Assembly (NCBI GenBank): GCA_964395955.1
Contig: CAYNDI010000001.1
Coordinates: forward strand, 1-36,603
DNA length: 36,603 nt
From: an uncultured Dehalococcoidaceae bacterium
GTDB taxonomy: Bacteria; Chloroflexota; Dehalococcoidia; Dehalococcoidales; RBG-16-60-22
Direction of reading: 5' to 3'
In this document: positions 4,791 to 34,421 of the stretch, piece by piece
Layout: every line of letters begins with the position of its first letter
Numbering within the stretch: position 1 is the stretch's first letter
The notes under the pieces: model-generated
Databases searched by the model: none
Seen by the model: the letters and a program-made list of their open reading frames with translations, nothing else
Told to the model about the DNA's origin: nothing
Position numbers and translations under genes: made by a program

Positions 4791-6290
4791 ATGAAGGTAG
4801 TGCTGGTAAATCCCCCGCAGACCCTCCCTGCTAAAAGCGTCGGGGTACTGGAAGCAAGGATACATCCCCCGCTGAGCCTGCTTTACCTGGCGGCCGTCCT
4901 GGAGAAAAAGGGGGTTGAAATCAGCATCGTCGATGCTCTCGTAATCGGGGAAGGCGCTTTATTCCGCGAGGGTGACAGCCTGCATTTTGGCGCCCGCTGG
5001 CCGCTTTTAAAAGAAAAAATCGCCGAGCTTGAACCGGATATCGTCGGCATTACCAGTCCGTTCACCAGCCAGCTTAAGAATGCCCTGGCCGCCGCCCGCC
5101 TGGTCAGGGAAATCAACCCTGAAATCCCGGTCATTGCGGGTGGCCCCCATGCCGTCGTATCGCCCGGTGATTTTCTGGCTGAGAAGACTATCGACGTGGT
5201 GGTCATGGGCGAGGGAGAGCTGATATTACCGGAGCTTATCAGTCATTATGCCGGTTCCGGCCCAGACCTGGCCGGTATCAGGGGAATCGCTTTCCGGAAC
5301 GAAAAGGGCGAAGTCGTTGTCAACGAACGTGCCGCGCCCGTAGAAAATCTCGACGAACTCCCTTATCCCGCTTATCACCTTCTCAACATGGAAGACTACT
5401 TTCTGGTTCACGAGAAGGGCTTCAAGGGGCGCTCATATGCCAGCGTCAGCCAGACCGTGCCTGTTATTACCAGTCGGGGCTGTCCCTTCAACTGCTGCTT
5501 CTGTTCGGTGCATCTCCATATGGGACGCAAGTGGCGTCCCCACTCGCCGGAACATGTCCTGGGGCACCTCAAGCTACTCAAAGAAAAATACGGCGTGCGC
5601 CATATCGATTTTGAGGATGATTGCATTAATCTGAACGAAAAAAGGTTCGATGAAATCCTGGAGATGATGATAGGGGAGAAGCTGGGTCTGACCTGGAATA
5701 CCCCCAACGGCGTGCGCGGCGACCTTCTTAACGAGTCGCTGGTCAGCAAGATGAAAAAGTCCGGCTGTCTCCGTATCACCATCGCTCCCGAGTCCGGCGA
5801 CCAGGACACTTTAGACAACATCATCGATAAAAAGCTGGACCTACGGAAAATAGAGGCTACGGCCGGGCTGCTGCAGAAATATAAAATAGCCACGCATGCC
5901 TACTATATAGTCGGGTTCCCCGGCGAGACCCCGGCTAAGATGCAAAATACTTTCGACTTTGCCGCCAGGCTGCTGAAAAAGTACGGTGTCGTCCCCTCGG
6001 TCACCATGGCCAGCCCGCTTATCGGCACCCGCCTTTATAACGAATCCAAGAAAGCCGGCTATCTAATAAAGGAGCCCGCCCCGGAGGATATTCTGCTCGG
6101 CTCACATCCCGGCGGCGCCGGTCTGCTCCGTACATCTGAGTTCACGCCGGAAAGCGTCCGGGCGGCTATCAAGAAGTTCTACCGGCGCGTCTTTTTCATC
6201 GCCCTCGGCAAGGCGCCGACTTTAATTCTAAGAGACCCCAAAGCCGCCTTTGAAAAAACGAAAGGGCTGCTCAAGCTGGCGGCCGGTTAG
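4791..6290 (+). CDS. B12-binding-domain radical SAM protein (class B radical SAM)
   Basis: The N-terminal Rossmann-like cobalamin-binding-type domain reads MKVVLVNPP..., DIVGITSPF and IPVIAGGPHA. The radical SAM cluster motif CxxxCxxC is present in TSRGCPFNCCFCS. Length is 499 aa. Confidence 0.8.
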   Translation: MKVVLVNPPQTLPAKSVGVLEARIHPPLSLLYLAAVLEKKGVEISIVDALVIGEGALFREGDSLHFGARWPLLKEKIAELEPDIVGITSPFTSQLKNALAAARLVREINPEIPVIAGGPHAVVSPGDFLAEKTIDVVVMGEGELILPELISHYAGSGPDLAGIRGIAFRNEKGEVVVNERAAPVENLDELPYPAYHLLNMEDYFLVHEKGFKGRSYASVSQTVPVITSRGCPFNCCFCSVHLHMGRKWRPHSPEHVLGHLKLLKEKYGVRHIDFEDDCINLNEKRFDEILEMMIGEKLGLTWNTPNGVRGDLLNESLVSKMKKSGCLRITIAPESGDQDTLDNIIDKKLDLRKIEATAGLLQKYKIATHAYYIVGFPGETPAKMQNTFDFAARLLKKYGVVPSVTMASPLIGTRLYNESKKAGYLIKEPAPEDILLGSHPGGAGLLRTSEFTPESVRAAIKKFYRRVFFIALGKAPTLILRDPKAAFEKTKGLLKLAAG

Positions 6291-6324
6291 TACATGGTGG
6301 ACTTAATGCCATACAATGATAAAC

Positions 6325-6407
6325 TCCTCTCCCTTGATGGGAGAGGAAGGGTGAGGGTGAAATCGTAGTCCCCTCTCCTTTAGTCCTCTCCCACAGGGGG
6401 GAGAGGA
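6325..6407. repeat. Pair of REP-like palindromic hairpins sharing the same 9-bp stem
   Basis: The first hairpin is TCCTCTCCC-ttgat-GGGAGAGGA (6325-6347) and the second is TCCTCTCCC-acaggg-GGGAGAGGA (6384-6407). Both lie in the 177-bp gap after the radical SAM gene. No T-tract follows either hairpin. Confidence 0.8.
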
Positions 6408-6467
6408 AATACATAAAGCTTCGTATGCAAACAGATGCTGGTAGAATATAGCTAGCGAGGTGTTAAG

Positions 6468-7466
6468 ATGAGAGAATATTTAAGCGCCTATAAAGGCAAA
6501 AGCGTCCTTATCACCGGTGGAGCCGGGTGTGTCGGTCGCAATCTGACCAAAGCCCTGATTAAAGCCGAAGCGGCCAAGGTTATCATTCTAGATGATCTTT
6601 CCGCCGCCGCTAAATGGAATATCCCGGCGGCTCCCAACGTAGTTTTCATACAGGGGAGCATACTGGACGAGGAAGCTCTGAAGCGGGCATTTGCTAACCG
6701 CCCCGAATTCGTATTTCACCTGGCGGCGCACTTCGCCAACCAGAACTCGGTGGATAACCCGGAGACCGACCAGACCGTTAACGGCCTGGGCACTTTAAAA
6801 GTGCTGGAATACGCCAACCTGGCCGGCATCGAGAAGTTCGTTTTCGCCTCCTCCGGGTGTTCAGTCTACGGTAGCCAGGCCCCGCTGCCGCTCAAGGAGG
6901 ACTTCGTTTCGCTGCACCTGGATACCCCCTATCAAATCACCAAGCTCCTCGGCGAGCTTTACTGCAACTTTTTCTATAATCATTATAAATTGCCGGTCGT
7001 CATCGCCCGCTACTTTAACGTCTACGGGCCGGGCGAGATACCCGGCGCCTACCGCAACGTCATCCCCAACTTCATGTGGTGGGCTATCCACAAGAAGCCC
7101 CTGCCGATTACCGGCACCGGTGACGAGACCCGCGATTTCACCTTCGTCGAGGACATCGTCGCCGGCACGATGCTGCTGGGCATCGTCCCCGAAGCCGTCG
7201 GCGACGCTTTTAATCTGGCTTCCGAGACCGAGACAAAGATTAAGGACATCGCTGATATGGTGAACGAAATTACCGGCAACGATAAAGGTATCGAGTTGAT
7301 ACCGCGGCGGGACTGGGACAAGATAACCCGGCGGAGAGCTTCGATTGAAAAAGCCGGGAAAGTCCTGGGCTACGAGCCGGGAATGGCTATGAAAGACGGT
7401 ATCAGGAAGGTCTACGACTGGATTATGGAGAACCGGAGCCTGATAGAGTCCAGCGCCAAGTTTTAA
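6468..7466 (+). CDS. NAD-dependent sugar-nucleotide epimerase/dehydratase (extended SDR)
   Basis: The glycine-rich motif is ITGGAGCVGRNL, the catalytic serine region is ASSGCSVYG and the YxxxK motif is YQITK. A GAGG RBS lies 7 nt upstream. Confidence 0.8.
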   Translation: MREYLSAYKGKSVLITGGAGCVGRNLTKALIKAEAAKVIILDDLSAAAKWNIPAAPNVVFIQGSILDEEALKRAFANRPEFVFHLAAHFANQNSVDNPETDQTVNGLGTLKVLEYANLAGIEKFVFASSGCSVYGSQAPLPLKEDFVSLHLDTPYQITKLLGELYCNFFYNHYKLPVVIARYFNVYGPGEIPGAYRNVIPNFMWWAIHKKPLPITGTGDETRDFTFVEDIVAGTMLLGIVPEAVGDAFNLASETETKIKDIADMVNEITGNDKGIELIPRRDWDKITRRRASIEKAGKVLGYEPGMAMKDGIRKVYDWIMENRSLIESSAKF

Positions 7467-7482: not shown

Positions 7483-8634
7483 ATGCCGCTAATGCGTAAA
7501 AAAGAGGCTGTTTTCGTGAGGTCGAACCCTTTAGACCGGGATGTCCGCCTGCCCAAGGAGATAACGGCGATTAACCTTGCGGGCTATGGCACCCGGCACA
7601 TTTACTGGGACCGGGAAGGAAAAGCCGATGAGCCGATGGAACTGGAAAATCACCGGGCGATACCCTTCCGCCTGAGGGCTCCCTGGGGTAAATGGATTTT
7701 GTTTTATCTCCCCCTCTGGTGGGGCTTCGTTTTCTTTCGCCTGGTGACGATGCGGTTCGATATCGTTCACGTTGTTAATTTCGATAGCGTCCTTCCCTGC
7801 GTCATCGCGGCGAAACTTAAGAGGAAGCCGGTTGTTTATGAACTCCTTGACGTATACGAGGAATTGCTCCCCGCCGGACTGCGGGCGGTCGGCCTGGCGG
7901 TGGACAAGTTAATCATGCGCCTGGCTACCGCTATCATCGTCGTCGATGACGAGCAGGTAGCGGGCATCGGCGGTATCCCCCACCGTCGTATCGTCACCGT
8001 TTACGATTCTCCACCGGATTATCTCGTCAATCAGGATAGCCCTCCCGCTGATATTGAGAAGAACAAGCAGTTCACGCTGTTTTATGCCGGCCAGCTGCAT
8101 CGGGACCGACTGCTCAATCTGGACAAGGTAATCGAGGTGGTTAAAGAAATCGATGGCGTAAAGCTGGTATTAGCGGGCTACGGGGATATGGCCGCGGAAA
8201 TCGGAGAGCTGGCTGCCCGGCTGCCTGACAGGTTTGAGTTTATCGGGAAAATACCCTACGCCGAGGTAATCCGATGCGGGCTGACGGCCGACCTCTTTTT
8301 CGTCCTCAGGGACCCCGTCCTGCCGTTTTACCGCTACATCTGCGGCAGCACCCTGTTCAACGCCATGATTTGCGGCAAGCCCATCCTGGTCAATCAGGGC
8401 ACTTCGACAACGAAGAAAGTCACCGCGGAGAACTGCGGTATAGCCGTGAATTCCGGTGATGTCAACGAGATAAAGCAGGCGATTATCAAACTACGCGATG
8501 GTCCGTCGCTCTGCCGCGAGCTGGGAACCAATGCCCGGCGGGCCTACGAGCAGCGTTATAGCTGGGATATCATGGGACAGCGGCTGGTCAATCTTTACAA
8601 CGAACTGACTCAGGAGGTTAAGGGTGCCGGATAA
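7483..8634 (+). CDS. GT-B glycosyltransferase (GT4-like)
   Basis: The protein is 383 aa with a two-Rossmann-domain layout. The C-terminal domain reads FYAGQL...VKLVLAGYG...GSTLFNAMICGKPILVNQG, resembling the GT4 donor-binding region. Confidence 0.65.
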   Translation: MPLMRKKEAVFVRSNPLDRDVRLPKEITAINLAGYGTRHIYWDREGKADEPMELENHRAIPFRLRAPWGKWILFYLPLWWGFVFFRLVTMRFDIVHVVNFDSVLPCVIAAKLKRKPVVYELLDVYEELLPAGLRAVGLAVDKLIMRLATAIIVVDDEQVAGIGGIPHRRIVTVYDSPPDYLVNQDSPPADIEKNKQFTLFYAGQLHRDRLLNLDKVIEVVKEIDGVKLVLAGYGDMAAEIGELAARLPDRFEFIGKIPYAEVIRCGLTADLFFVLRDPVLPFYRYICGSTLFNAMICGKPILVNQGTSTTKKVTAENCGIAVNSGDVNEIKQAIIKLRDGPSLCRELGTNARRAYEQRYSWDIMGQRLVNLYNELTQEVKGAG

Positions 8635-9682
8635 ACTTAAAGTTGGTATTGTCGGCTGCGGCGGTGTCGTTCATCAGGAGCATATACCGAGTTTTTCGAG
8701 GCTGCAGAACGTCGTTATTCAGGCGGTATGTGACCAGAACCGGGAACTGGCCCGGCAGACTGCCGCCAAATATAGCATCCCCGGTGTCTACGCCGGGATA
8801 ACGGATATGCTCGCAAAAGAAAGGCTGGACATCGTCGATATCTGTGTGCCTCCCCAGATACACGCCCCCCTGGCTTTAGAGGCTTTGCAGGCGGGTTGCC
8901 ACGTGCTGATGGAGAAACCGATGGCCCTCAAGGTCTCCGATTGCGACGCCATGCTGGAGGCTGCTAAAGCGAAAAACAGGCAAATCTGTGTCATTCACAA
9001 CCAGCTTTTTAATCCCCCCTTCCCCCGGGCCCGGCAGCTGGTGGCTGAGGGTGCTATCGGGGAGCTGACCGGACTGAGAATACTGCTTTCCGACCACCGC
9101 GACGAGATGATAATGAAGAAGGACTACTGGATACACAAGCTTCCCGGCGGCGTTATCGGGGAGTCAGGCCCACATATCGTCTATCTCACCCTGGCCTTTC
9201 TCAACAGCGTGAAAAACGTGGATGTCAGCGCCATGAGCTTTCTGGAACACCCCTGGGCGCCCTTCGATGAGTTTCGGCTGGGACTGGAAGGCGAAAAAGC
9301 CATGAGCTCGGTGGTCATGTCATATTCCAGCACCCGCCACGACCTTCTCGTCGATATCATGGGTACCGAAGGGTACATCCACGTCGACCTTACCGCCAAG
9401 TACCTGGTCCGCTACGGCGATAAGGCGTCGATAAAGCCGTCGCGTTTCGCCCGCTATTTCCTGAGCACACGCATGCAGGAGGCGGGGGGTATCGCCGGCA
9501 ACGCGCTGGGCTACCTTACGGGCAGGCTGAAGTTCGGCCATGAGCTGCTCATTAAAAGCTTCGTCGATAGTATCCTGAACGGCGGCCGGCCCCCGGTAAC
9601 CGGCGAAGAAGGCCGGGAGGTGGTGAAGGTCATGGAAATGATTGTGGCCAGGCTGAACGAGAAGTACGGGGGCAGCCGGTGA
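8624..9682 (+). CDS. Gfo/Idh/MocA-family NAD(P)-dependent oxidoreductase
   Basis: The N-terminal Rossmann motif is KVGIVGCGGV and the EKP motif is VLMEKPMA. It has a GTG start with an AGGAGG RBS ~9 nt upstream and overlaps the previous gene by 11 nt. Confidence 0.8.
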   Translation: MPDKLKVGIVGCGGVVHQEHIPSFSRLQNVVIQAVCDQNRELARQTAAKYSIPGVYAGITDMLAKERLDIVDICVPPQIHAPLALEALQAGCHVLMEKPMALKVSDCDAMLEAAKAKNRQICVIHNQLFNPPFPRARQLVAEGAIGELTGLRILLSDHRDEMIMKKDYWIHKLPGGVIGESGPHIVYLTLAFLNSVKNVDVSAMSFLEHPWAPFDEFRLGLEGEKAMSSVVMSYSSTRHDLLVDIMGTEGYIHVDLTAKYLVRYGDKASIKPSRFARYFLSTRMQEAGGIAGNALGYLTGRLKFGHELLIKSFVDSILNGGRPPVTGEEGREVVKVMEMIVARLNEKYGGSR

Positions 9683-9697: not shown

Positions 9698-10438
9698 GTG
9701 CCGATGCAGGAAATTAAGAAGGCCGTTGTCCTCGCCGCCGGACTCGGCAGCCGGTTGAAACCGCTGACCGATACCGCCCCCAAGTGTCTCACCGAGGTCA
9801 ACGGAAAGGTATTGCTGGAGCATACTCTCGGCATACTCGAAAACAACGGCATCGATGAGGCGGTAATCGTCGTCGGCTACCTGGGGGACATCATCGTCGA
9901 TAAAATCGGGCCTGGATTCGGTAAAATGAAAGTCGCCTATCTCTGGAATAAAATCTACGAAAAAACGAACTCCATGTACTCCGCCTGGCTGGCCAGGGAG
10001 TACCTTGAGCAGGGGGCTATGCTCATCGAGGGAGACACCATCTTCGAGGAGTCCCTTCTACGGGGCGTACTCGGTGAGTACCCGGGCCGGGCCTGCTGGG
10101 TCGGCGACAGGTTCACGCCGGTGCATGACGGCTCAATGTCCACGACAGATAGCGAGAATAGAATCGTCGAATTGAGAATCGTCAGGGAGAAGCTCAGGGA
10201 GTACCGGAGCAATTACTTTAAATCTACCGGTGTGCTTAAAATCACGTCGGAATACGGTCGGGCGCTATCACGGTGGCTCGATGAAGACGTCCGCCGGGGC
10301 AATGTCAGGATATATTTTGATATTGTCATCGCCGGGCACCTGGCGGATGCCCCGATATTTATTCACGATTTCACCGGGGGGAAATGGATCGAGATTGACG
10401 ATATCGGAGACCTGAGGAGGGCGGAGCAGCTGTTTTAA
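9698..10438 (+). CDS. LicC-like nucleotidyltransferase (phospho-alcohol or sugar-1-phosphate cytidylyl/nucleotidyl-transferase)
   Basis: AVVLAAGLGSRLKPLTDTAPKCLTEVNGKVLLEHTL resembles the LicC / 2-aminoethylphosphonate cytidylyltransferase / NTP_transf_3 N-terminus. Length is ~245 aa. An alternative ATG start lies at 9704. Confidence 0.65.
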   Translation: MPMQEIKKAVVLAAGLGSRLKPLTDTAPKCLTEVNGKVLLEHTLGILENNGIDEAVIVVGYLGDIIVDKIGPGFGKMKVAYLWNKIYEKTNSMYSAWLAREYLEQGAMLIEGDTIFEESLLRGVLGEYPGRACWVGDRFTPVHDGSMSTTDSENRIVELRIVREKLREYRSNYFKSTGVLKITSEYGRALSRWLDEDVRRGNVRIYFDIVIAGHLADAPIFIHDFTGGKWIEIDDIGDLRRAEQLF

Positions 10439-10457: not shown

Positions 10458-11174
10458 ATGGGTCTATTAAAATACTACTGGAAAGCGGTTCACTGCCTGG
10501 GCTATTTCGACCGGCATAATAAAGGCGCCTGGCGGCCTGATACCGAGCACAAGGTGAAAATCGATTACAAAACGGTAGTCAGTGAGTCCGACAGAAAACA
10601 GTGTCTCCACTTTGGTCCCGAAGACGCCGCTAAAGAAGAAGCCGCTTTATCGCCGTATATCGATATCAACCCGCAGTCAAGGGTGCTCGACCTCGGCTGC
10701 GGGGACGGCCGGTGGGGGAAGATACTGGCCCCCCGCTGCAGGGAATATGTGGGCGTGGACTTCTCTAAAAAGCTGCTGGAAAAAGCCCGCCGTAACGTCC
10801 CTGATGCCAATGCCGGGTTTATCTGTCATCCGGCCCAGGAGTATTATGCTGACGAACACTTTGATTTAATTCTCATCATCGGCCTGCTGACCTACCTCAA
10901 CGACGAGGATATTATTAAACTGGCCGGTAACTGCCGCAAGATGCTCGCCGGAGGCGGCCGGCTTATCGTCAGGAACGTCTCGCTGGGGGACAACTCCTGC
11001 CGCCGGCAGGTGTACGATTACCGGCCGGGCGCCTGGCTGGGGTGGCTGGGAGACCCCGGTTATCAGGTGATAAGACGCAACCGGGAGGAGGAGCTGTCTT
11101 TCTTTAAGGACTTCCGCCTCGTTAACGACCAGTCGATAGCCGGCACCGCCTACAGATTTTATATCTTCGAGTGA
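10458..11174 (+). CDS. Class I SAM-dependent methyltransferase
   Basis: Motif I is RVLDLGCGDGRWG and the acidic post-I residue is in YVGVDFS. Length is 238 aa. Confidence 0.75.
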   Translation: MGLLKYYWKAVHCLGYFDRHNKGAWRPDTEHKVKIDYKTVVSESDRKQCLHFGPEDAAKEEAALSPYIDINPQSRVLDLGCGDGRWGKILAPRCREYVGVDFSKKLLEKARRNVPDANAGFICHPAQEYYADEHFDLILIIGLLTYLNDEDIIKLAGNCRKMLAGGGRLIVRNVSLGDNSCRRQVYDYRPGAWLGWLGDPGYQVIRRNREEELSFFKDFRLVNDQSIAGTAYRFYIFE

Positions 11175-11180
11175 GGTATT

Positions 11181-11873
11181 GTGAGTAAAGAGAAAGTCGT
11201 CGGTATCCTTGGAGGTATGGGTCCCCTGGCCACGGTGGAGTTTTTCCGTCAGGTGGTTTCATCTACTGCGGCCAGGAAAGACTGGGAGCATTTGAGGATT
11301 ATTATTGATAATAATACCAAAATTCCGAGTCGGACCCGGGCTGTCCTGTACCGGGAAGACAGCCCGGTGCCGATGATGATAGCCAGTATTAATATGCTGG
11401 CCGATGCCGGGGCGGACTTTGTGGTTGTGCCCTGCAATTCCGCCCACTATTTCTTTGATGATGTGACCCCGCATATCCGGATTCCCTGGTTGAATATGAT
11501 TGATATCACTTCTCGTACATTTTCAAGTAAGTTGCAGCGGCCGCTTGTCCTGGGGGGTTATATCACTGTCGAAAAAAGGCTTTACAGTCGGAATCTGCCC
11601 GGGGCGGTATATCCCGCCGGGCCCTGGAACACTTTCGTGACCGAGGTTATTGAAGAGATTAAACTTACGGCCAGGTTGCGTCCGCAGATGAAAAACATGT
11701 TTATGGAAATGATCGAACATTATCGTCATGAGATAGATTCGGTATTACTGGCCTGCACCGAGCTTCCCCTGGTATACAGGAGTAAAAGCCTGCACGGTAT
11801 TCCGGTCGTTGATTCCGGTCTGGAATACGCCCGTGAAGCCGTCAGGTACGCCCGTGGCAGCGCCAGTCATTAA
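11181..11873 (+). CDS. Asp/Glu/hydantoin-racemase-family protein (aspartate-racemase-like)
   Basis: The sequence contains GILGGMGPLAT and two catalytic-Cys motifs, VVPCNSAHYF and LLACTELPL. It has a GTG start and is 230 aa. Confidence 0.75.
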   Translation: MSKEKVVGILGGMGPLATVEFFRQVVSSTAARKDWEHLRIIIDNNTKIPSRTRAVLYREDSPVPMMIASINMLADAGADFVVVPCNSAHYFFDDVTPHIRIPWLNMIDITSRTFSSKLQRPLVLGGYITVEKRLYSRNLPGAVYPAGPWNTFVTEVIEEIKLTARLRPQMKNMFMEMIEHYRHEIDSVLLACTELPLVYRSKSLHGIPVVDSGLEYAREAVRYARGSASH

Positions 11874-27868: not shown

Positions 27869-28861
27869 TTAACGCCCGGCCGGTTTTCTGGCTACGGCTC
27901 TCATGTGTGAACTGAATCCGCTTGCGGTAATCCAGGCCTGCAGGCTCTCTTTCGCCGCGGGTGTGGCGCGTTCGGCAAATGTCCTCCAGAGTCGTCCCGG
28001 GTCGATATTTTCGTTTCTATACATGCCTTCGACGATGTCCCAGTCGAGTTGCCCCGGGGTATCGACTTTCTCCACGATAAAGCCGCATTTTTCGAGTAAC
28101 AGGGCCAGCGAGCCGGGATTGAAGAAGTTGAGGTGGTGTGGCGGCGTCACGTTCTTGGACTTCTCCCAGAGTATCTGGATATCGAATCCCTCGCCGTTGA
28201 GGGTAGTCAGCAGCAGGCAGCCCCCGGGTTTCAGCAGCTCATGCGCTTTCTTGAGTCCGTCGGCAGGGGTGTGCAGGTGCTCCAGAAGCTCGAAAGATGT
28301 CAGCAGGTCAAAGCTCCTGTCCCGTCCCGTTACTTCCTCTATCCCGCAGGGGATAACCTCCAGGCTTTTCTCACGGCAGATATCGGCCATCTCGCCGGAC
28401 GGCTCGATAGCTGCCAGTTTAACGGCCGGCCAGAATTTACCGAGCTCTTCCAGGAAAATGCCGAATCCAGCGCCGATATCCCCGATAACCCCCTCTGATA
28501 TCTGCGTGAACTCGTCCCGGACGAACTCCGCCCTCGGTCGGAAAATCTTCTCGCGCCGGGCTTCGGCCACCGGTTTGAAGAAGTCGTTGACCCAGAAGCT
28601 GGCCGATTTTGACTTTGTATAGTAGTCCATCAGCAGGTCCGCCGGCGGACGGGGATTAACGAACAGTGTCCCGCAGTCCCGGCACAATACGTAACTGAAT
28701 CCCAGTTTCTCGAACTGGGCCCGGTGGCCCCGCCCGCCGCAGGCCGGGCAGCCAACCGGCCTGAAGAGGCTGCGGTCTTTAAAAATAGTGCGCACGTCTT
28801 CCGCTACCAGTTCCAGGTAGCGGTTCAACACCGAACGCTGGCGTATTTCCTCTTCTTTCAC
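27869..28861 (-). CDS. Class I SAM methyltransferase with an N-terminal Cys4 zinc-ribbon (MT-C)
   Basis: The zinc ribbon is CPACGG...x17...CRDCGTLFVNPRP. Motif I is IGDIGAGFGIF, the acidic residue is in AAIEPS and motif II is FDLLTSFELLEHL. Confidence 0.75.
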   Translation of the reverse strand: MKEEEIRQRSVLNRYLELVAEDVRTIFKDRSLFRPVGCPACGGRGHRAQFEKLGFSYVLCRDCGTLFVNPRPPADLLMDYYTKSKSASFWVNDFFKPVAEARREKIFRPRAEFVRDEFTQISEGVIGDIGAGFGIFLEELGKFWPAVKLAAIEPSGEMADICREKSLEVIPCGIEEVTGRDRSFDLLTSFELLEHLHTPADGLKKAHELLKPGGCLLLTTLNGEGFDIQILWEKSKNVTPPHHLNFFNPGSLALLLEKCGFIVEKVDTPGQLDWDIVEGMYRNENIDPGRLWRTFAERATPAAKESLQAWITASGFSSHMRAVARKPAGR

Positions 28862-28865: not shown

Positions 28866-29651
28866 TCAATCGCTCCTTTCCGACAGGTATCGGCCGACCA
28901 GCGGGTCTTTTTTCATATATTCTTCCACGGCGTTCAGTTGTTGCGGCGTATCCACCCCTAAGGTCTCGTAGTCAGTCGTTACCATCCTTATCTTGTAGCC
29001 GTGCTCGACGGCACGCAGCATGTCCACGGACTCTATAATTTCCAGGGGCGTCGGCTCGAGTTTATTAAATTTAAAGAGGAAGTCCCGCCGGAAAGCAATT
29101 ATACCCAGCTGCTTGAAGGCGGGTACCTGACCGGACGCCTTTTTTTGCGAAGGTATGGGCTCCCGGGAGAAATACAGGGCGTCGCTGTTATTGTCCACCA
29201 CCGTCTTGACCACGTTCGGGTCTTCGTACTCCTCGCGGTTCTTTATCCTTGCCATGAGGTTGGCGGCTGCCAGCGAAACATCCTCCAGCAGGGGGCGGAC
29301 CACCTCGTCCAGCATCTCCGGGAAAATCAGGGGTTCGTCTCCCTGGATATTGACCACGATGTCAACTTTCTGGCCGGTAGCGGCGATTATCTTTTCCGTA
29401 GCCTCGGCAATCCTGTCGGTACAGCGCTCGTGGGACGCCGAAGTCATGATGGCCTTGCCGCCGATTGATTTTACATAATCGGCAATCTCTTCATCGCACG
29501 TGGCTGCGTAGGCCTCACCGAGGGTTCGACTCATCTTGCTTCTGAAATAGACGTGTCCCACCATGGGTACGCCCAGGATTTTAGCCAGCGGTTTTCCGGG
29601 AAAGCGGGTTGATGCCATCCGGGCCGGGATTATTCCAATTACCTTCATCAT
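28866..29651 (-). CDS. KdsB-like CMP-ulosonic-acid synthetase (3-deoxy-manno-octulosonate cytidylyltransferase family)
   Basis: VIGIIPARMASTRFPGKPLAKILGVPMVGHVY and VVNIQGDEPLI follow the KdsB pattern (IIPARYASTRLPGKPL ... VNVQGDEPL). Length is 261 aa. Confidence 0.8.
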   Translation of the reverse strand: MMKVIGIIPARMASTRFPGKPLAKILGVPMVGHVYFRSKMSRTLGEAYAATCDEEIADYVKSIGGKAIMTSASHERCTDRIAEATEKIIAATGQKVDIVVNIQGDEPLIFPEMLDEVVRPLLEDVSLAAANLMARIKNREEYEDPNVVKTVVDNNSDALYFSREPIPSQKKASGQVPAFKQLGIIAFRRDFLFKFNKLEPTPLEIIESVDMLRAVEHGYKIRMVTTDYETLGVDTPQQLNAVEEYMKKDPLVGRYLSERSD

Positions 29652-29658: not shown

Positions 29659-31176
29659 TCACTCCGTTATATTACTATCCTCAGGCCGGTTTCTCGATAC
29701 GGTGGTGCGTATCTCCCGTATTATTACCCGTAGCTCGGTAATCGAAACGTAGTGGTGATAGAATATTGCGATTATAAAAGCCCAGATTAATAACTGACAT
29801 GCCAGCGTGATACCGGTGAAAGCCCACATGCTGTCTACTGCCGAATATAGATAGTTGTGCAGGAAATAGAAAGGAAGGCAACATGCAAAAGGTACCAGTA
29901 AAACCGCCGCAAACCTGACGAATTCACCCGGCGTTTTATAGATGTAATTTTTTATCAGGTAGTACAGAATCAATGTCACCAGGCCCTGGGTGCAGATGGT
30001 TACCCAGGCGACTCCGACTACTCCGTAACCGAGTTTGATAACCAGAATATCGAAACCGATGTTTAAAGCCAGGCCGATGGAGTAAAAGATCAGCGTGAGT
30101 TTCTGTTTGTTTACCAGGCTGGATCTCAGGATTAGCGAAGGTATAATCGCTATCGCCACCAGATAGAGATTGTAGGATAGTACGTTGAATATCGGTATGC
30201 TGTCGACATACTTCTTCGTCAGCAGGGTGGCTATCAGGGTAAAGATTAATTGAGCCAGGGGGATAACGATAGCCGTGCCCAGCGCCATATACACGGCGAT
30301 ACGCCGGGTATCCCTGAAGCCCTTATAAACCGACTCGGCGATACCGGCTTCCTGCCACAGGATGGGCTGTAACACCCTGCCGAAATCGTTGAAAAAAGTC
30401 AGCGCATAAGTTAGAAAACCCATGGCAAACGTATAGAATCCCAACTGTGCCAGGGGTAATGCCACGGCGATAATCGTCCTGTCGGCCATGCGGAAAGCCC
30501 ATAACATTATCCCCAGCCCCTGGAGAACGATACCTATTTTCACCAGCCGGATAATTTCCCGTCTGTCCAGTGAAAAGCGGAAACCGATGGCCCCCCTGGT
30601 GAAGTAGTAGACCAGCGCCACGGCATGGGCGACCAGCGGCCCCACAATCAGGGCGTAGACTTTCAGCCAGTGCAGGCTGGCCAGTATGATAACCGGGGAA
30701 ATAATCGTGATTACCAGGTTCCCCAGCGCCACTGTGTTGAATTTCTGCCTTATAAAGTTTATGTGGGACCAGAGGCCGGTCAGGCGGTTGACGACATAGC
30801 TCATAGCGATGATGAGTAGGCCGGTTTTAAGAATGGTGTCCGCATAAAAAAAGGAAGCCCCTATGATTACAGCGGTGGGGGCTATAGTATAAAGCAGTTC
30901 GGCGGAAACGGAGATATTCTGGACTCTCAACGCATCTTTCTCCCGGCCTTTTCCCAGGAGCACGGGTATTTCCCGGGAAGCGGCGCCGTATATTCCCGGT
31001 GTCACGAGGCCGACATACATCAGCCATAATGTGAGTAAACCGTAAGTCCCGTATTCCGTCGGGGTGAGTATCGTAGCGGCGTACAGGGTTACGGCCAAAC
31101 CGGCCACGGCCGATATGCCCTGCACGAAAGTGAACTTCATCGAGTTCCTGGCTATGTTGATGATGCTTATCGGCAT
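29659..31176 (-). CDS. Wzx-like oligosaccharide/polysaccharide flippase (MOP superfamily)
   Basis: The protein is 505 aa and very hydrophobic, with roughly 12-14 predicted TM helices throughout. Its position, between glycosyltransferase genes and sugar-activation genes, fits a flippase. Confidence 0.6.
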   Translation of the reverse strand: MPISIINIARNSMKFTFVQGISAVAGLAVTLYAATILTPTEYGTYGLLTLWLMYVGLVTPGIYGAASREIPVLLGKGREKDALRVQNISVSAELLYTIAPTAVIIGASFFYADTILKTGLLIIAMSYVVNRLTGLWSHINFIRQKFNTVALGNLVITIISPVIILASLHWLKVYALIVGPLVAHAVALVYYFTRGAIGFRFSLDRREIIRLVKIGIVLQGLGIMLWAFRMADRTIIAVALPLAQLGFYTFAMGFLTYALTFFNDFGRVLQPILWQEAGIAESVYKGFRDTRRIAVYMALGTAIVIPLAQLIFTLIATLLTKKYVDSIPIFNVLSYNLYLVAIAIIPSLILRSSLVNKQKLTLIFYSIGLALNIGFDILVIKLGYGVVGVAWVTICTQGLVTLILYYLIKNYIYKTPGEFVRFAAVLLVPFACCLPFYFLHNYLYSAVDSMWAFTGITLACQLLIWAFIIAIFYHHYVSITELRVIIREIRTTVSRNRPEDSNITE

Positions 31177-31177: not shown

Positions 31178-32407
31178 TCATACCCCGGATTTCACTTTCT
31201 TCGCTTCTATCGCTTCTTTTATCCGGGTTTCCAGCTGCTCCGCGATGCTTTCGCAGCTGTGGACTTTCTTCACGTATTCCAGGCCGTTGCGTTCCAGGCG
31301 CTGCCGGTATTCTTTATCTTTCAGGAGGTTGACCAGCTTCTCCGCCATGTCTTCGGCGGTACCGGCAAAAGCTATGCCCTGTTCCTCCCCGGGAGTTACT
31401 GCTACCAGGCCGGGCAGCGGTGTGGCCACAATGGCTTTGGCGCAGGCCAGGTACTGGACTATTTTTCCCGGAAAGATTTCCCGGGTGGCGCCGGTTATCC
31501 GGAAGGGGTTCAGGCACACGGTAGCTATATTGATATATTGCGGCATTGTCTCGTACGGCTGAAAGCCCGTGATAATTACTTTGTCTCCCACCCCCGTCTC
31601 AGTGATGATGCTTTCGAGTTTCCGACGCTGCGGTCCGTCCCCGACGATGAGCAGTTTTACATCGGGTACCCGGCTGGCGATTTCCGGCAGCCGGGGGATT
31701 ATCAGGTCGAGTCCGCTGAAATCGAAGAGCGTGCCCATATAGAGGATGACGTTGTCCTTTTCCTGGATATCCCACTGCATTCGCAGTTCGGCGGGGGCCG
31801 GGAAAGGGTAAAAGATAGCCGTGTCCACCGGCATGGGCAGCAGCTTTATCCTGTCCTCTTTAGCCCCGAAATTAGCCGTATATCTGGAAAGGCTGGGTGT
31901 CAGTGTCAGAATCATGTCCGAACGGGCGTAGACCAGCTTTTCCAGCATCTTAGTAAACGGCCTCAAAACAGGATAGACAACGAGTTGGTTGAGGATGTCA
32001 ATCGACCTGAATACGACGGGGATTTGGTATCGACGGGCAGCGTAGATAGCCTGCAGGCCATTGGTGGCGGCGCTGTAGAGGACGACGGCGTCTATCTTTT
32101 TCTCCCGGATAGTCTTGCTGATGGCTGTGCAATGTGTATAAGCGGCGGATATTCGACTCAGCCCGCCTATTTTTATTAAGCCCGGTCTGATAAGCGTTAC
32201 CGAAGAGCCGCTGAAAGCGCGTGACACGCCTTCTATCTCCTGTGTCTTGAAAGAACCCATATCGGTCAGGCCTTGACGTTTCCAGGTGTTTTCGTAGTCG
32301 ATGGCGTAGATTTTGTGCCCCCGCAGCGATAACGATTCCGCCAGGGTATGGATGTCGAAGACTACCTTGTTCAGCCAGTCGACTTCATGGATGAAGAGGA
32401 CATTCAC
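31178..32407 (-). CDS. GT-B glycosyltransferase, family GT4-like (WbuB-like)
   Basis: The N-terminus is MNVLFIHEVDW... The C-terminal domain reads ILYMGTLFDFSGLD...VKLLIVGDGPQ...ITGFQPYETMPQYINIATVCLNPF...GKIVQYLACAKAIVA. Confidence 0.75.
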   Translation of the reverse strand: MNVLFIHEVDWLNKVVFDIHTLAESLSLRGHKIYAIDYENTWKRQGLTDMGSFKTQEIEGVSRAFSGSSVTLIRPGLIKIGGLSRISAAYTHCTAISKTIREKKIDAVVLYSAATNGLQAIYAARRYQIPVVFRSIDILNQLVVYPVLRPFTKMLEKLVYARSDMILTLTPSLSRYTANFGAKEDRIKLLPMPVDTAIFYPFPAPAELRMQWDIQEKDNVILYMGTLFDFSGLDLIIPRLPEIASRVPDVKLLIVGDGPQRRKLESIITETGVGDKVIITGFQPYETMPQYINIATVCLNPFRITGATREIFPGKIVQYLACAKAIVATPLPGLVAVTPGEEQGIAFAGTAEDMAEKLVNLLKDKEYRQRLERNGLEYVKKVHSCESIAEQLETRIKEAIEAKKVKSGV

Positions 32408-32419
32408 GCTGTAACTCCG

Positions 32420-33346
32420 CTACTTAATGCCATATACGGATTTCATCCATTCTATTGTCCGGGGTATGCCTTCCTCGGGGGGTACCTTCGGGTCGTGTTT
32501 CAGGTCACGCCGGGACTTGCTGTAATCGATATGCTTGACCTGGGTGGTGAAGGGCTCGCCTTTCTTGTAAGTAACCTTGGAGTCGTCCTTGCCCAGGTAT
32601 TCGAGTATCAGGTCGGAGACGTGTTTGATGTCGCATTCCCAGTCTTCCTTGCCGCCGACGTTATAGACCTCGCCGGCGATGAAGTTGTCGGCGATATTCG
32701 CAAAGGTTCGGCAGGTATCCTCCACGTAGTCGAAGATGCGCTTGTGCCCCGTGTAAACGGTATATGGTTCATCGTGGAGGGCTTTATGGATGAACGCGGG
32801 GATAACGCCCCGGTAGGGGTGATAGTGCTCATAGGGACCGTAGGCGTTGACCGGCCGCACCCTGACGGTCTCCGTGCCGAACATCTCCGCCGAGTTCAGC
32901 ACCATGAGCTCTCCCGCCCACTTGGTGACGGCGTAATCGTTCATCTGCTTGATAGCCAGTTTGTCCATCACGTCTTCGCTCATCTTTCCCGTGTAATCGC
33001 CGTAGACCTCGGCGCTGGAAAAGAATATCATCTTAAACTTCTTCCGCTCCTGGAGGCGGAGCATGTGCTTGGTGCCGATGACGTTGGTCTGCCAGAGGTT
33101 TTCGTAGTAGTCCTCGCCGTTCCACCGCCCGTATTCCGCCGCCAGGTGATAAACGAAATCGAAATCGTGAGTATTAAAAATCCGCTCTATCTGCCGGTAC
33201 TCCCGGGTATCGCAGCGTATGTAGTTGGCCGTGGCTGCAGAGTTCATTAAATCGCAGACCCACACCTCATGGCCGCGCTGTCTCAGTTCCGGCACGAGGT
33301 TCGAGCCGATGAACCCGGTGCCTCCGGTAACCAGTATCTTAGCCAT
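32420..33346 (-). CDS. NAD-dependent sugar-nucleotide epimerase/dehydratase (extended SDR)
   Basis: The sequence contains MAKILVTGGTGFIGSNL, FSSAEVYG and YAVTK (YxxxK). I place the start at ATG 33346, which has a GGAGG RBS (33353-33357) 6 nt upstream and overlaps the wecB stop by 8 nt. The 35-codon N-terminal extension in the ORF track (to 33451) lies inside wecB and is rejected. Confidence 0.8.
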   Translation of the reverse strand: MAKILVTGGTGFIGSNLVPELRQRGHEVWVCDLMNSAATANYIRCDTREYRQIERIFNTHDFDFVYHLAAEYGRWNGEDYYENLWQTNVIGTKHMLRLQERKKFKMIFFSSAEVYGDYTGKMSEDVMDKLAIKQMNDYAVTKWAGELMVLNSAEMFGTETVRVRPVNAYGPYEHYHPYRGVIPAFIHKALHDEPYTVYTGHKRIFDYVEDTCRTFANIADNFIAGEVYNVGGKEDWECDIKHVSDLILEYLGKDDSKVTYKKGEPFTTQVKHIDYSKSRRDLKHDPKVPPEEGIPRTIEWMKSVYGIK

Positions 33347-34421
33347 CTTTTGCCTCCATGATGATGTTGATAATCCTTGCGGCGGCCTTTCCGTCCCCGA
33401 AGGGATTGGCCCAGTCCTTCTTCCTGTCCAGCATGGCCGCGGCACACTCAAGTATTTTATCCGCCGACGCGCCGGCCAGTATGTTCGCCCCCGCCTCTAC
33501 TGTTTCCGGACGTTCCGTGTTGTCCCGCAGCGTTACGCAGGGCACTTTCAGGATGCAGGTTTCCTCCTGGACGCCCCCGGAGTCGGTCAGTACCAGCCGG
33601 GCGTTGCTTTCCAGTTGCAGGAAGCTGAGAAAGTCCACCGGGTCGATTGTTTTAACGTTCTCCGGCGGCTTGGCCAGGTCGTCTATCAGCTTTCGGCTTC
33701 TCGGGTGGGCGGGATAAACGACCGGCAGACCGAACTTACCGGCGACCCGGCTTAGTCCCTCCAGGATTGAGCTGAACCTTTCTTCGTTATCGGTGTTCTC
33801 CTGGCGGTGCAGGGTGGCCAGGAAATATTTCTGAGGCTTGAGCTGGAACTGTTTTTCGATGTCTACTTGGCCCCTAGCTAGCTCCAGGTTCTGATAAACG
33901 GCATCGACGATTGTATTTCCGGTGACGAACACCTTCTCCTTGCCGATTCCCTCACCGAGCAGTATCTCCCGCGCTTTGGCTGTCGGCGCGAAGAGGTAGT
34001 CCGAGATATGGTCGGCCAGCACCCGGTTGATTTCCTCCGGCATCGTCCGGTCGTAGGAGCGCAGTCCCGCCTCCACGTGCCCGACCCTGATGCCGAGTTT
34101 GACCGCCGCCAGGGCGCCGGCCAGGACGCTGTTGGTGTCCCCCTCCACGAGGACGATATCCGGCTTTTCCTCTTTGAGTATTCCCTCGATACCGATGAGC
34201 ATCTTGCCGGTCTCTTCGGCGTGGGAGCCGGAGCCGACTTCTATATTATATTTCGGCGGGGGTATTTCCAGCTGGTCGAAAAAGACCTTGTCGAGCTGGT
34301 AGGAATAGTGCTGTCCGGTGTGGAGTGTGAAAAAGCCTGTCCTGTTTTCCTGCAGTATTTTCAGCAGGGGAGCCATCTTGATTATTTCGGGGCGGGTTCC
34401 GAGGATTACCGAAATCTTCAT
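33339..34421 (-). CDS. wecB: UDP-N-acetylglucosamine 2-epimerase (non-hydrolysing)
   Basis: The sequence MKISVILGTRPEIIKMAPLL...HTGQHYSY...VEGDTNSVLAGALAA...HVEAGLRS...TLHRQENTD...TDSGGVQEE is classic WecB/MnaA. It is the first gene of the minus-strand operon. Confidence 0.9.
   Translation of the reverse strand: MKISVILGTRPEIIKMAPLLKILQENRTGFFTLHTGQHYSYQLDKVFFDQLEIPPPKYNIEVGSGSHAEETGKMLIGIEGILKEEKPDIVLVEGDTNSVLAGALAAVKLGIRVGHVEAGLRSYDRTMPEEINRVLADHISDYLFAPTAKAREILLGEGIGKEKVFVTGNTIVDAVYQNLELARGQVDIEKQFQLKPQKYFLATLHRQENTDNEERFSSILEGLSRVAGKFGLPVVYPAHPRSRKLIDDLAKPPENVKTIDPVDFLSFLQLESNARLVLTDSGGVQEETCILKVPCVTLRDNTERPETVEAGANILAGASADKILECAAAMLDRKKDWANPFGDGKAAARIINIIMEAKDG

What the first reader, a model, noticed from the sequence alone, without database searches (positions are those of the whole stretch)
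4791..34421. Island architecture: complete tailoring, glycosyltransferase and flippase set, but no priming phosphoglycosyltransferase, Wzy or Wzz
**What the sequence shows.** The 31 genes include four classical glycosyltransferases (7483, 12882, 14580, 31178) and two TagF/capsule-like transferases (11886, 18663). They also include one Wzx-like flippase and at least four nucleotide-sugar pathways, based on UDP-GlcNAc/ManNAc, CDP-6-deoxyhexose, a CMP-ulosonic acid and a LicC-type CDP/CMP-alcohol. I see no WecA/WbaP/PglC/AglH-type initiating transferase, no Wzy polymerase, no chain-length regulator and no ABC exporter in the window.

**Inference.** A flippase without a polymerase, next to an oligosaccharyltransferase, fits a defined lipid-linked oligosaccharide of roughly 5-7 residues with several non-sugar decorations. 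It fits a polymerised O-antigen or capsule less well. The priming enzyme must be encoded elsewhere.
Basis: inference. Interest (0 to 1): 0.55.

Follow-up and report, generated by a model that had tools for sequence, protein, structure and literature searches.

The report
Archaeal-type N-glycosylation island in Dehalococcoidia

Summary
Between 4791 and 34421 there are 30 genes in two convergent operons: three GT4s, one GT2, a 600-aa GT-B protein, a TagF-like 327-aa protein, one MOP/Wzx flippase and several sugar-activation and tailoring sets. Nothing matches PF00953, PF02397, Wzy or Wzz. No glycan ABC exporter is present. The only polytopic membrane proteins are the flippase and a 5' fragment of an STT3/AglB oligosaccharyltransferase (35052 to the window end).

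The window is a whole contig. Orthologous loci with flanks, two of them on 1.1 and 1.56 Mb contigs, keep the same layout. They show no primer, polymerase or exporter within 10 kb of the transferase.

New context: the host is a Dehalococcoidia (Chloroflexota) bacterium. The transferase is archaeal AglB-type; its best solved relative is Archaeoglobus AglB, and a 93% identical orthologue passes TIGR04154.

In other Dehalococcoidales an AglJ/DPM1-like GT2 with C-terminal membrane helices sits beside the transferase.

Best reading: a lipid-linked oligosaccharide is assembled in the cytoplasm, flipped by the Wzx-like protein and transferred en bloc to surface proteins. This is a new member of a known kind, of moderate interest.

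The parts
4791..6290 (+). B12-binding radical SAM enzyme (class B methyltransferase-like); first gene of the + operon
   Evidence: PF02310 and PF04055. Best NCBIfam match is the Sden_1168 P-methyltransferase family, 236 bits, below its cutoff.
6468..7466 (+). SDR sugar-nucleotide epimerase/dehydratase (GalE/TviC-like); part of the conserved core
   Evidence: PF01370 3.7e-50. 89% identical in L011 and 78% in L006.
7483..8634 (+). GT4 glycosyltransferase
   Evidence: PF00534, PF13692 and PF13579. 75% identical orthologue in L010.
8624..9682 (+). Gfo/Idh/MocA oxidoreductase (sugar 3-dehydrogenase-like)
   Evidence: PF01408. UDP-GlcNAc 3-dehydrogenase model, 108 bits, below cutoff.
9698..10438 (+). 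Nucleotidyltransferase (AglF/LicC/MurU-like); substrate unresolved
   Evidence: PF12804 and PF00483. All NCBIfam hits are below cutoff.
10458..11174 (+). Class I SAM methyltransferase
   Evidence: PF13649 and others.
11181..11873 (+). Asp/Glu-type amino-acid racemase (CuyB-like)
   Evidence: PF01177 1.6e-32. TIGR00035 139 bits against a cutoff of 93; CuyB 173 bits against a cutoff of 190.
11886..12869 (+). 327-aa TagF-like (CDP-alcohol phosphotransferase-like) protein; small family, possibly domain-permuted
   Evidence: PF04464 27.7 bits. AF2 pLDDT 88.5. Foldseek top hit is TagF 3l7m, E 6.5e-4. Only 36 representatives at E <= 1e-10 among 1.84 billion. 63% identical orthologue in L010.
12882..13970 (+). 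GT4 glycosyltransferase (core)
   Evidence: PF00534 and PF13579. 58% identical in L010 and L011.
13967..14563 (+). Hexapeptide-repeat acetyltransferase
   Evidence: PF00132. WbbJ-like, 70 bits.
14580..15407 (+). GT2 glycosyltransferase, elongating type (TuaG/WcaA/PglI-like); not a polyprenyl-phosphate GT
   Evidence: PF00535 1.1e-36. TuaG 3.5e-39, while the AglJ model reaches only 1.3e-4 over the N-terminal 100 aa. PDB hits are chondroitin synthase, SpsA and PglI, with no DPMS, ArnC or GtrB. No C-terminal membrane helix.
15434..18637 (-). CDP-6-deoxyhexose set of four genes: SDR reductase 15434-16402, cupin epimerase 16417-16866, CDP-glucose 4,6-dehydratase-like 16869-17858, glucose-1-P cytidylyltransferase 17849-18637
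   Evidence: TIGR02623 309 bits against a cutoff of 300; TIGR02622 206 bits; PF00908.
18663..20465 (-). 600-aa GT-B-fold protein of the TIGR04326 family; putative transferase for the ulosonic acid (inferred)
   Evidence: TIGR04326 4e-27. AF2 pLDDT 89, pTM 0.90. Foldseek matches GT1 glycosyltransferases, UDP-GlcNAc 2-epimerases and WaaA.
20482..24585 (-). Five genes: HpcH/HpaI pyruvate aldolase 20482-21261, IMPase-family phosphatase 21277-22041, D-2-hydroxyacid dehydrogenase 22043-22960, SAM methyltransferase 22973-23941, GmhA-like SIS isomerase 23971-24585
   Evidence: PF03328, PF00459, PF02826, PF13489 and PF13580. NCBIfam results.
24618..28861 (-). Four genes: methyltransferase 24618-25625, Gfo/Idh/MocA oxidoreductase 25622-26671, NanM-like sugar O-methyltransferase 26661-27761, methyltransferase 27869-28861
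   Evidence: TIGR04371 104 bits against a cutoff of 44. The 26661-27761 gene is absent from the 93% identical strain L001.
28866..29651 (-). KdsB-type CMP-ulosonic acid synthetase
   Evidence: PF02348 2e-47. NF009905 318 bits against a cutoff of 255.
29659..31176 (-). MOP-family (Wzx/AglR-like) flippase; the only polytopic membrane protein in the island
   Evidence: PF13440 51 bits and PF01943 36 bits. About 12-13 hydrophobic spans. Conserved at 65-93% identity in L001, L007, L012, L010 and L011.
31178..32407 (-). GT4 glycosyltransferase (core, next to WecB and the SDR)
   Evidence: PF00534 1.7e-26. Orthologues at 52-91% identity.
32420..33346 (-). SDR epimerase/dehydratase (core). The true start is probably about 33346, because orthologues are 307-308 aa.
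   Evidence: PF01370 8e-47. Orthologue lengths.
33339..34421 (-). Non-hydrolysing UDP-GlcNAc 2-epimerase (WecB/MnaA); first gene of the - operon
   Evidence: PF02350 3.5e-117.
35052..36603 (+). 5' part (517 codons, runs off the contig end) of an AglB/STT3-type oligosaccharyltransferase
   Evidence: PF02516 2e-27. TIGR04154 1e-91. The 93% identical full-length orthologue P0001 scores 511 bits against a cutoff of 450. Its best PDB match is A. fulgidus AglB-L, 4.6e-49, and it carries WWDYG.
4362..4620 (.). Left copy of an inverted ~250-bp intergenic repeat that brackets the island (partner at 34599-34838)
   Evidence: blastn 65% over 266 bp, with 88% over a 50-bp core. Alignment.
34599..34838 (.). 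Right copy of the same repeat, in inverted orientation

Best explanation
The island is the glycan-assembly half of an AglB-dependent (archaeal-type) protein N-glycosylation system carried by a Dehalococcoidia bacterium.

Proposed mechanism (inferred, not shown):
1. A lipid-phosphate carrier is primed by an enzyme encoded elsewhere in the genome.
2. Cytoplasmic GT4, GT2 and GT-B transferases extend it using UDP-ManNAc-derived, CDP-6-deoxyhexose and CMP-ulosonic acid donors.
3. Methyl, acetyl and probably phospho-alcohol groups are added.
4. The finished oligosaccharide is flipped by the single MOP/Wzx-like protein.
5. The adjacent AglB-type oligosaccharyltransferase transfers it en bloc to Asn residues of secreted or S-layer proteins.

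There is no polymerisation step, so no Wzy or Wzz is needed.

What is shown directly: gene content, family memberships, the absence of primer, polymerase, co-polymerase and exporter genes, conserved adjacency to the transferase, and bacterial hosts.

What is inferred: the order of the steps, the glycan size (one primer sugar plus up to five more sugars and a phospho-substituent), the acceptor proteins, and the nature of the primer.
For: - Complete family scan of all ORFs.
- The only polytopic proteins are the MOP flippase and the transferase.
- The transferase fragment matches PF02516 and TIGR04154.
- The full-length 93% identical orthologue passes the TIGR04154 cutoff and has WWDYG. Its best solved relative is A. 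fulgidus AglB-L (4.6e-49, against about 1e-6 for eukaryotic STT3).
- The WecB-SDR-GT4-Wzx module is adjacent to the transferase in the window, L001, L007, L012, L010 and L011. The block between the GT2 and the flippase varies, as expected for a glycan-diversity locus serving one transferase.
- No primer, Wzy, Wzz or ABC-2 gene lies within 10 kb in those loci.
- Bacterial host: the relatives lie on contigs of up to 2 Mb labelled Dehalococcoidales, Chloroflexota or Chloroflexia. The bacterial gene LepA lies on L013.
- A DPMS/ArnC/AglJ-like GT2 with membrane helices sits beside the transferase, or beside WecB-SDR-GT4, in L003, L006, L013 and L015.
Against: - No glycoprotein, glycan or lipid-linked intermediate has been observed.
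- The primer was not found, so the pathway is incomplete as seen.
- The window contains only the N-terminal 517 aa of the transferase. WWDYG and the core domain are inferred from orthologues.
- A Wzy or Wzz gene elsewhere in the genome cannot be excluded.
- I found no literature support for N-glycosylation in Dehalococcoidia in the searchable library.
Confidence: 0.7

Rival explanations
1. The island makes repeat units of a Wzx/Wzy-dependent surface polysaccharide (O-antigen- or capsule-like). Its polymerase, co-polymerase and primer are encoded elsewhere, and the neighbouring oligosaccharyltransferase is functionally unrelated.
For: - Wzx-type flippases are typical of Wzy-dependent pathways.
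- Content rich in GTs and tailoring enzymes resembles O-antigen clusters.
- TIGR04326 is named from surface-carbohydrate clusters.
Against: - No Wzy or Wzz gene is present in the island or within 10 kb in five orthologous loci.
- The flippase module stays glued to the transferase across transferases that are 55-93% identical.
- Dehalococcoidia are monoderm with no outer membrane or LPS (established knowledge; monoderm Chloroflexota envelope in PMC12488501).
Confidence: 0.12
2. The priming step is in fact encoded in the window by an unrecognised enzyme, for example the TagF-like 327-aa protein, the 600-aa GT-B protein or a GT4 acting directly on the lipid phosphate. On this reading the island is self-sufficient.
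For: - Two transferase-like proteins have no assigned specificity.
- The 327-aa protein belongs to a very small family and lies in the conserved core of L010.
Against: - All known polyprenyl-phosphate primers are membrane proteins (PF00953, PF02397, or GT2 with membrane helices). None of these candidates has a convincing membrane helix.
- The minimal island L011 lacks both the 327-aa and the 600-aa genes yet keeps the flippase and the transferase.
- The window's GT2 resembles elongating GT2s, not DPMS, ArnC or AglJ.
Confidence: 0.08
3. The contig is archaeal DNA mis-binned into bacterial MAGs, so this is simply an ordinary archaeal agl cluster.
For: - The transferase belongs to an NCBIfam subfamily described for Euryarchaeota.
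- Its best solved relative is archaeal.
Against: - Homologues at 38-59% identity lie on single contigs of 1.1, 1.56 and 2.0 Mb labelled Chloroflexota or Chloroflexia.
- All names given among the top 120 hits are Dehalococcoidales or Chloroflexota.
- L013 carries the bacterial gene LepA next to the GT2-WecB module.
Confidence: 0.03

Closest known systems
Euryarchaeal AglB-dependent N-glycosylation clusters (Haloferax volcanii agl, Methanococcus voltae/maripaludis agl)
   Same: - AglB-type transferase (TIGR04154, with WWDYG).
- A MOP/Wzx-like flippase, as AglR is in Haloferax.
- GT2 and GT4 Agl-type transferases and nucleotide-sugar genes clustered beside aglB.
- No polymerase or chain-length regulator.
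- Glycans carry methyl and other non-sugar decorations.
- The primer is often encoded away from aglB.
- The AglJ/AglK-type primer is a GT2 of the DPM1 clade (PMC4973528). An AglJ-like gene flanks the transferase in related Dehalococcoidales.
   Different: - The host is a bacterium (Dehalococcoidia).
- The carrier lipid is presumably bacterial polyprenol rather than dolichol (not tested).
- No AglJ, AglK or AglH gene lies in this island.
- Orthologues of the transferase carry a J-like domain in the cytoplasmic TM12-TM13 loop.
- The accessory block has KdsB without KdsA.
Campylobacter-type bacterial pgl system (PglB)
   Same: A bacterial en bloc N-glycosylation system that uses an STT3-superfamily transferase and a short, defined lipid-linked oligosaccharide with no polymerase.
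   Different: - The transferase here is AglB-like, not PglB-like. No PglB chain appears among the 60 listed of 64 PDB sequence matches at E <= 1e-3.
- There is no PglC (PF02397) primer.
- The flippase is MOP-type, not the ABC-type PglK.
- There are no bacillosamine genes.
Wzx/Wzy-dependent O-antigen or capsule gene clusters
   Same: A Wzx-family flippase, several GTs, and nucleotide-sugar and tailoring genes in one locus.
   Different: - No Wzy, Wzz/PCP, WbaP/WecA or ligase gene.
- An N-oligosaccharyltransferase sits at the locus edge.
- The host is monoderm with no LPS.

Membership tests
AglB/STT3-dependent N-glycosylation locus (archaeal Agl type) | STT3-family catalytic subunit with the 13-TM N-terminal domain | tested here: met
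   Window 35052-36602 matches PF02516 at 2e-27 and has 13 hydrophobic spans.
AglB/STT3-dependent N-glycosylation locus (archaeal Agl type) | AglB subfamily membership (TIGR04154 above cutoff) with WWDYG and the AglB core domain | tested here: inconclusive
   The window fragment scores 308 bits against a cutoff of 450 because it is truncated at residue 517. The 93% identical full-length orthologue P0001 scores 511 bits, has PF22627 and has WWDYG at residue 708. The C-terminal half of this strain's own gene is not in the assembly.
AglB/STT3-dependent N-glycosylation locus (archaeal Agl type) | Catalytic acidic residues in EL1 and the EL5 TIXE-type glutamate | tested here: met
   In the HMMER alignment of orthologue P0001 to A. 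fulgidus AglB-L (5gmy), D of 'VDAYY', D of 'LND' and E of 'TTIEMQ' align to the Af 'ND', 'FND' and 'TIAE' positions. The window itself reads VDAYF, LND and TTIEMQ.
AglB/STT3-dependent N-glycosylation locus (archaeal Agl type) | Lipid-linked oligosaccharide flippase candidate (MOP/AglR-like) | tested here: met
   PF13440 and PF01943 are both above the gathering score.
AglB/STT3-dependent N-glycosylation locus (archaeal Agl type) | Priming enzyme on the lipid phosphate (AglH PF00953, or AglJ/AglK GT2 with C-terminal membrane helices) | tested here: not met
   None is present in the window or within 10 kb in five orthologous loci. An AglJ-like gene is present beside the transferase in L003, L006 and L015.
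AglB/STT3-dependent N-glycosylation locus (archaeal Agl type) | N-linked glycan on acceptor proteins | not testable with these tools
   Needs glycoproteomics.
Wzx/Wzy-dependent polysaccharide cluster | Wzy polymerase (polytopic, PF04932 or similar) | tested here: not met
   No Pfam hit, and no second polytopic protein in the island.
Wzx/Wzy-dependent polysaccharide cluster | Wzz/PCP chain-length regulator (PF02706) | tested here: not met
   No hit, and no bitopic protein with a large external domain.
Wzx/Wzy-dependent polysaccharide cluster | Initiating phosphoglycosyltransferase (WbaP PF02397 or WecA PF00953) | tested here: not met
ABC-transporter-dependent polysaccharide cluster | Wzm/Wzt (ABC-2 permease PF01061 plus ATPase) | tested here: not met
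   The only ABC system in the window is an Opp/Nik-type importer at 19-3661. ABC-2 permeases occur only near distant Chloroflexia paralogues L004 and L005.
Campylobacter-type pgl system | PglB-type transferase, PglC primer and PglK ABC flippase | tested here: not met
   The best PDB relatives are AglB, with no PglB chain among the 60 listed of 64 matches. No PF02397 hit and no ABC flippase.

The most novel reading that the evidence does not exclude
Dehalococcoidia, bacteria without peptidoglycan, may have acquired a complete euryarchaeal-style N-glycosylation pathway by horizontal transfer. That pathway would comprise an AglB-type transferase, an AglJ-like primer using a monophosphate-linked carrier, and a Wzx/AglR-like flippase. 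They would use it to glycosylate their S-layer or surface proteins, with strain-variable glycans. In this lineage the transferase has additionally gained a cytoplasmic J-like domain, and the glycan includes a methylated ulosonic acid made by a KdsA-independent pyruvate-aldolase route.
Probability: 0.3. Interest if true: 0.75.

Novelty: new member of a known kind. Interest (0 to 1): 0.5.

Why it matters
N-linked protein glycosylation in bacteria is known experimentally almost only from PglB systems of Campylobacterota and Desulfobacterota.

Here a large, conserved family of AglB-type transferases sits in Dehalococcoidia and other Chloroflexota. At least 120 homologues share 40% identity or more. 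Each transferase examined carries its own variable glycan-assembly island.

This would extend archaeal-style N-glycosylation to an environmentally important, wall-less bacterial class. It parallels the reported archaellum transfer from Methanotecta to the same classes (PMC12488501). It also gives a concrete locus for testing how such cells build their surface layer.

For the narrow finding itself, the absence of a primer, Wzy and Wzz is the expected signature of an en bloc oligosaccharide pathway. It is not anomalous.

Tried and rejected
- **Exact-sequence look-ups.** Three window proteins returned nothing. The window turned out to be a whole 36,603-bp contig, so its own flanks cannot be read.
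- **Membrane proteins beside the transferase in L002 and L005.** I suspected that these 6-8-TM, 300-320-aa proteins were WecA/AglH-type primers. They are cation-efflux (PF01545) proteins.
- **The conserved 290-aa membrane protein downstream of the transferase.** I considered it as a hidden primer. It has a HELGH zincin motif and only weak M50B/DUF3267 similarity, so it is not a transferase.
- **The window GT2 as an AglJ/AglK/DPM1-type primer.** Rejected: it has no C-terminal membrane helix, it is TuaG/WcaA/PglI-like, and no DPMS, ArnC or GtrB chain appears among its PDB matches.
- **A relic of the AglJ-like gene in the 34422-35051 gap.** tblastn found none.
- **An AglJ-like orthologue on the island-bearing large contigs.** I looked for their contig lengths among the top 120 homologues. 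None matched, but the list stops at 66% identity, so this is inconclusive.
- **PDB sequence searches.** The 600-aa, 327-aa and 505-aa proteins gave nothing useful. Structure prediction was needed for the first two.
- **Rfam.** At gathering thresholds it found nothing in the window, including the flanking repeats.
- **Literature.** Searches for an oligosaccharyltransferase, AglB or STT3 in Dehalococcoidia or Chloroflexota found no relevant paper. A search for an HpcH-plus-KdsB ulosonic acid route also found none.

Full report
**1. What is in the window**

ORF listing and Pfam/NCBIfam scans of every substantial ORF give the following map.
- 19-3661 encodes an Opp/Dpp/Nik-type ABC importer: two BPD_transp_1 permeases and two ATPases with oligo_HPY.
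- 3728-4141 encodes a HypA-like protein.
- 4791-15407 is an 11-gene + strand operon.
- 34421-15434 is a 19-gene - strand operon that converges on the first.

After a 630-bp gap, an ORF starts at 35052 and runs off the end of the window. It encodes the first 517 residues of an STT3/AglB-type oligosaccharyltransferase (PF02516 2e-27; TIGR04154 1e-91).

**2. Check of the observation**

The four classical glycosyltransferases are confirmed: GT4 at 7483, 12882 and 31178, and GT2 at 14580.

The 505-aa protein at 29659-31176 matches two MOP-superfamily flippase models above their gathering scores. PF13440 scores 51 bits and PF01943 scores 36 bits. It has about 12-13 hydrophobic spans.

A simple hydropathy scan shows that it is the only polytopic membrane protein in the island. 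No ORF hits PF00953, PF02397, PF04932 or PF02706. The intergenic space is too small to hide such a gene.

The nucleotide-sugar modules are real:
- WecB scores 392 bits.
- Glucose-1-P cytidylyltransferase is above its equivalog cutoff, with a dehydratase, an epimerase and a reductase alongside it.
- KdsB is above its cutoff.
- A fourth nucleotidyltransferase, at 9698, has no resolvable specificity.

The two 'TagF/capsule-like' proteins needed structure prediction.
- The 327-aa protein (pLDDT 88.5) has TagF as its top Foldseek match, and it has a short PF04464 match.
- The 600-aa protein (pLDDT 89) belongs to TIGR04326. It has a generic GT-B fold that matches GT1 enzymes, UDP-GlcNAc 2-epimerases and the Kdo transferase WaaA.

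**3. Surroundings and relatives**

The 600-aa protein is on record on an NCBI contig of exactly 36,603 bp. The window is therefore a whole contig and has no flanks of its own.

A genome-collection scan with the transferase fragment found its relatives only in Chloroflexota MAGs.
- The closest is a 93% identical orthologue in an 'uncultured Dehalococcoidaceae bacterium' (L001).
- The others are 38-47% identical and come from Dehalococcoidales and from a 2.0-Mb Chloroflexia contig.

A protein search found at least 120 homologues with 40% identity or more. Every hit that carries an organism name is Dehalococcoidales or Chloroflexota.

Context look-ups recovered orthologous islands on contigs of 187 kb (L007), 128 kb (L012), 1.11 Mb (L010) and 1.56 Mb (L011). 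All of them keep the same order: WecB, then the SDR, then the GT4 (absent in L011), then the Wzx-like gene, directly beside the transferase.

L010 also keeps the other arm: SDR, GT4, methyltransferase, the 327-aa protein, GT4 and GT2. L011 is a minimal version with only two glycosyltransferases.

The window's block 15434-29651 is an accessory insertion between the GT2 and the flippase. It holds the CDP-6-deoxyhexose genes, TIGR04326, the aldolase/phosphatase/isomerase/KdsB set and the methyltransferases.

Downstream of the transferase all of these loci continue with a 290-aa HELGH membrane protein, ThiS, aldehyde:ferredoxin oxidoreductase, FUR and methylmalonyl-CoA mutase. None has a primer, Wzy, Wzz or ABC-2 exporter.

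**4. Nature of the transferase**

The full-length orthologue P0001 passes the TIGR04154 cutoff (511 bits against 450). It has the AglB core domain and WWDYG.

Its best solved relative is Archaeoglobus fulgidus AglB-L (4.6e-49). Eukaryotic STT3 scores about 1e-6, and no PglB chain appears among the 60 listed of 64 matches.

In that alignment the EL1 aspartate, the second acidic motif and the EL5 glutamate align with the Archaeoglobus catalytic positions. The window itself reads 'TTIEMQ' at the EL5 site.

The enzyme is thus archaeal AglB-type but sits in bacteria. The literature states that a few bacterial AglB homologues nest within the euryarchaeal clade through transfer from archaea (PMC4973528). 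Dehalococcoidia and Anaerolineae have also been shown to have received archaellum clusters from Methanotecta (PMC12488501). I found no paper in the searchable library that describes an oligosaccharyltransferase in Dehalococcoidia or Chloroflexota.

**5. The missing primer**

Euryarchaeal AglB pathways can instead be primed by DPM1-clade GT2 enzymes, AglJ and AglK (PMC4973528; their priming role is from my own knowledge of the Haloferax and Methanococcus work).

The window's single GT2 is not of that class:
- It lacks C-terminal membrane helices.
- It is closest to TuaG, WcaA and PglI.
- Its PDB matches are chondroitin synthase, SpsA and PglI.

More distant Dehalococcoidales loci (L003, L006, L015) do carry a candidate. 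It is a 292-299-aa GT2 with two or three C-terminal membrane helices, and it lies next to the transferase. In L013 it lies directly upstream of the same WecB-SDR-rSAM-GT4 module.

Its best NCBIfam model is AglJ, with a full-length alignment at 143 bits, below the equivalog cutoff. Its best solved relatives are Pyrococcus dolichol-phosphate mannose synthase and ArnC. The family is highly conserved in the order: the top 120 homologues are at least 66% identical.

There is no relic of it in the window. I could not determine whether the window's genome encodes it elsewhere.

My inference is that the primer lies elsewhere, and there are two candidate types:
- This AglJ-like enzyme, which would imply a monophosphate-linked carrier as in Euryarchaeota.
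- A WecA/AglH-type GlcNAc-1-P transferase. The conserved WecB would fit a ManNAc-type second sugar on a GlcNAc primer.

**6. Mechanism and rivals**

The best-supported reading (confidence about 0.7) has three stages:
1. A defined oligosaccharide is assembled in the cytoplasm. It has up to about six sugars plus methyl, acetyl and phospho-alcohol decorations in this strain, and only about three sugars in the minimal relative.
2. The MOP protein flips it across the membrane.
3. The AglB-type transferase moves it en bloc to protein.

The rivals are:
- A Wzy-dependent polymer whose polymerase is encoded elsewhere (0.12).
- An unrecognised primer inside the island (0.08).
- Archaeal mis-binning (0.03).

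The first is weakened by conserved adjacency to the transferase and by the monoderm host. The second is weakened by the lack of membrane helices and by the minimal island L011. The third is weakened by the 1-2 Mb Chloroflexota contigs.

**7. Verdict**

The lack of a primer, Wzy and Wzz is the normal signature of an en bloc N-glycosylation locus, so the architecture itself is ordinary.

What raises the interest to moderate is the context. An archaeal-type N-glycosylation island is conserved and strain-variable in a bacterial class without peptidoglycan. It is annotated automatically in databases, but I found no description of it in the literature I could search.

Noticed in passing
Just beyond the window end; L001 10001-12769 (P0001), residues 530-600: Orthologues of the transferase carry a DnaJ-type J domain (PF00226, 2.7e-22). 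It is inserted between the segments that align to A. fulgidus AglB at about 409-441 and from 477 on, which I take to be TM12 and TM13, so it would lie in a cytoplasmic loop. About 30% of the top 120 Chloroflexota homologues have it. In P0001 the signature reads HSD rather than HPD, and only 12 of 120 homologues have HPD in that region. I know of no J-domain fusion to an oligosaccharyltransferase.
   Followed up: partly
window 20482-29651: KdsB scores above its NCBIfam cutoff, but KdsA, KdsC and KdsD are absent. In their place are an HpcH/HpaI pyruvate aldolase, an IMPase-family phosphatase, a GmhA-like SIS isomerase, a PGDH-like dehydrogenase, a Gfo/Idh/MocA oxidoreductase and four methyltransferases, one of them NanM-like. 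The TIGR04326 GT-B protein lies just downstream at 18663-20465. This may be a non-canonical route to a methylated 3-deoxy-ulosonic acid. I found no paper on such a route.
   Followed up: partly
window 4362-4620 and 34599-34838: An inverted ~250-bp repeat brackets the island, about 170-180 bp upstream of the first gene of each operon. It is 65% identical over 266 bp, with 88% cores and an internal ~50-bp direct repeat. A similar sequence appears to occur downstream of the transferase in L001, judged only from a similar translated motif, so it may be a dispersed intergenic element rather than an operon-specific leader. Rfam has no match.
   Followed up: partly
L007 12820-13683; L010 12894-13766; L011 12709-13581; L012 13053-13925: A conserved 287-290-aa membrane protein with a HELGH zincin motif always follows the transferase gene. 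It has only weak M50B/DUF3267 similarity and no NCBIfam match. It may be a processing protease linked to the glycosylation system.
   Followed up: partly
window 26661-27761 versus L001 2727-2809: The NanM-like sugar O-methyltransferase gene is present in the window, L007 and L012. It is absent from L001, whose flanking genes are about 93-95% identical. This suggests strain-level variation of the glycan decoration.
   Followed up: partly
window 11886-12869: The 327-aa TagF-like protein belongs to a very small family. Only 36 representatives reach E <= 1e-10 among 1.84 billion. Its N-terminal 100 residues match the C-terminal part of relatives of about 340 aa, and its residues 200-310 match their N-terminal part. 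This suggests a circular permutation of the two Rossmann halves.
   Followed up: partly
window 3728-4141: The HypA-like ORF matches the HypA model only over its first 60 residues, and its C-terminal half has no match. It may be a frameshifted or degenerate gene.
   Followed up: no
L004 154-2334; L005 17424-19123: In a 2.0-Mb Chloroflexia contig that carries two transferase paralogues (40% identical to the window's), ABC-2 permease/ATPase pairs lie about 5-8 kb from each paralogue. One of them is beside a GmhA-like isomerase that is 42% identical to window 23971-24585. Some Chloroflexota transferase loci may therefore use ABC-type export.
   Followed up: no
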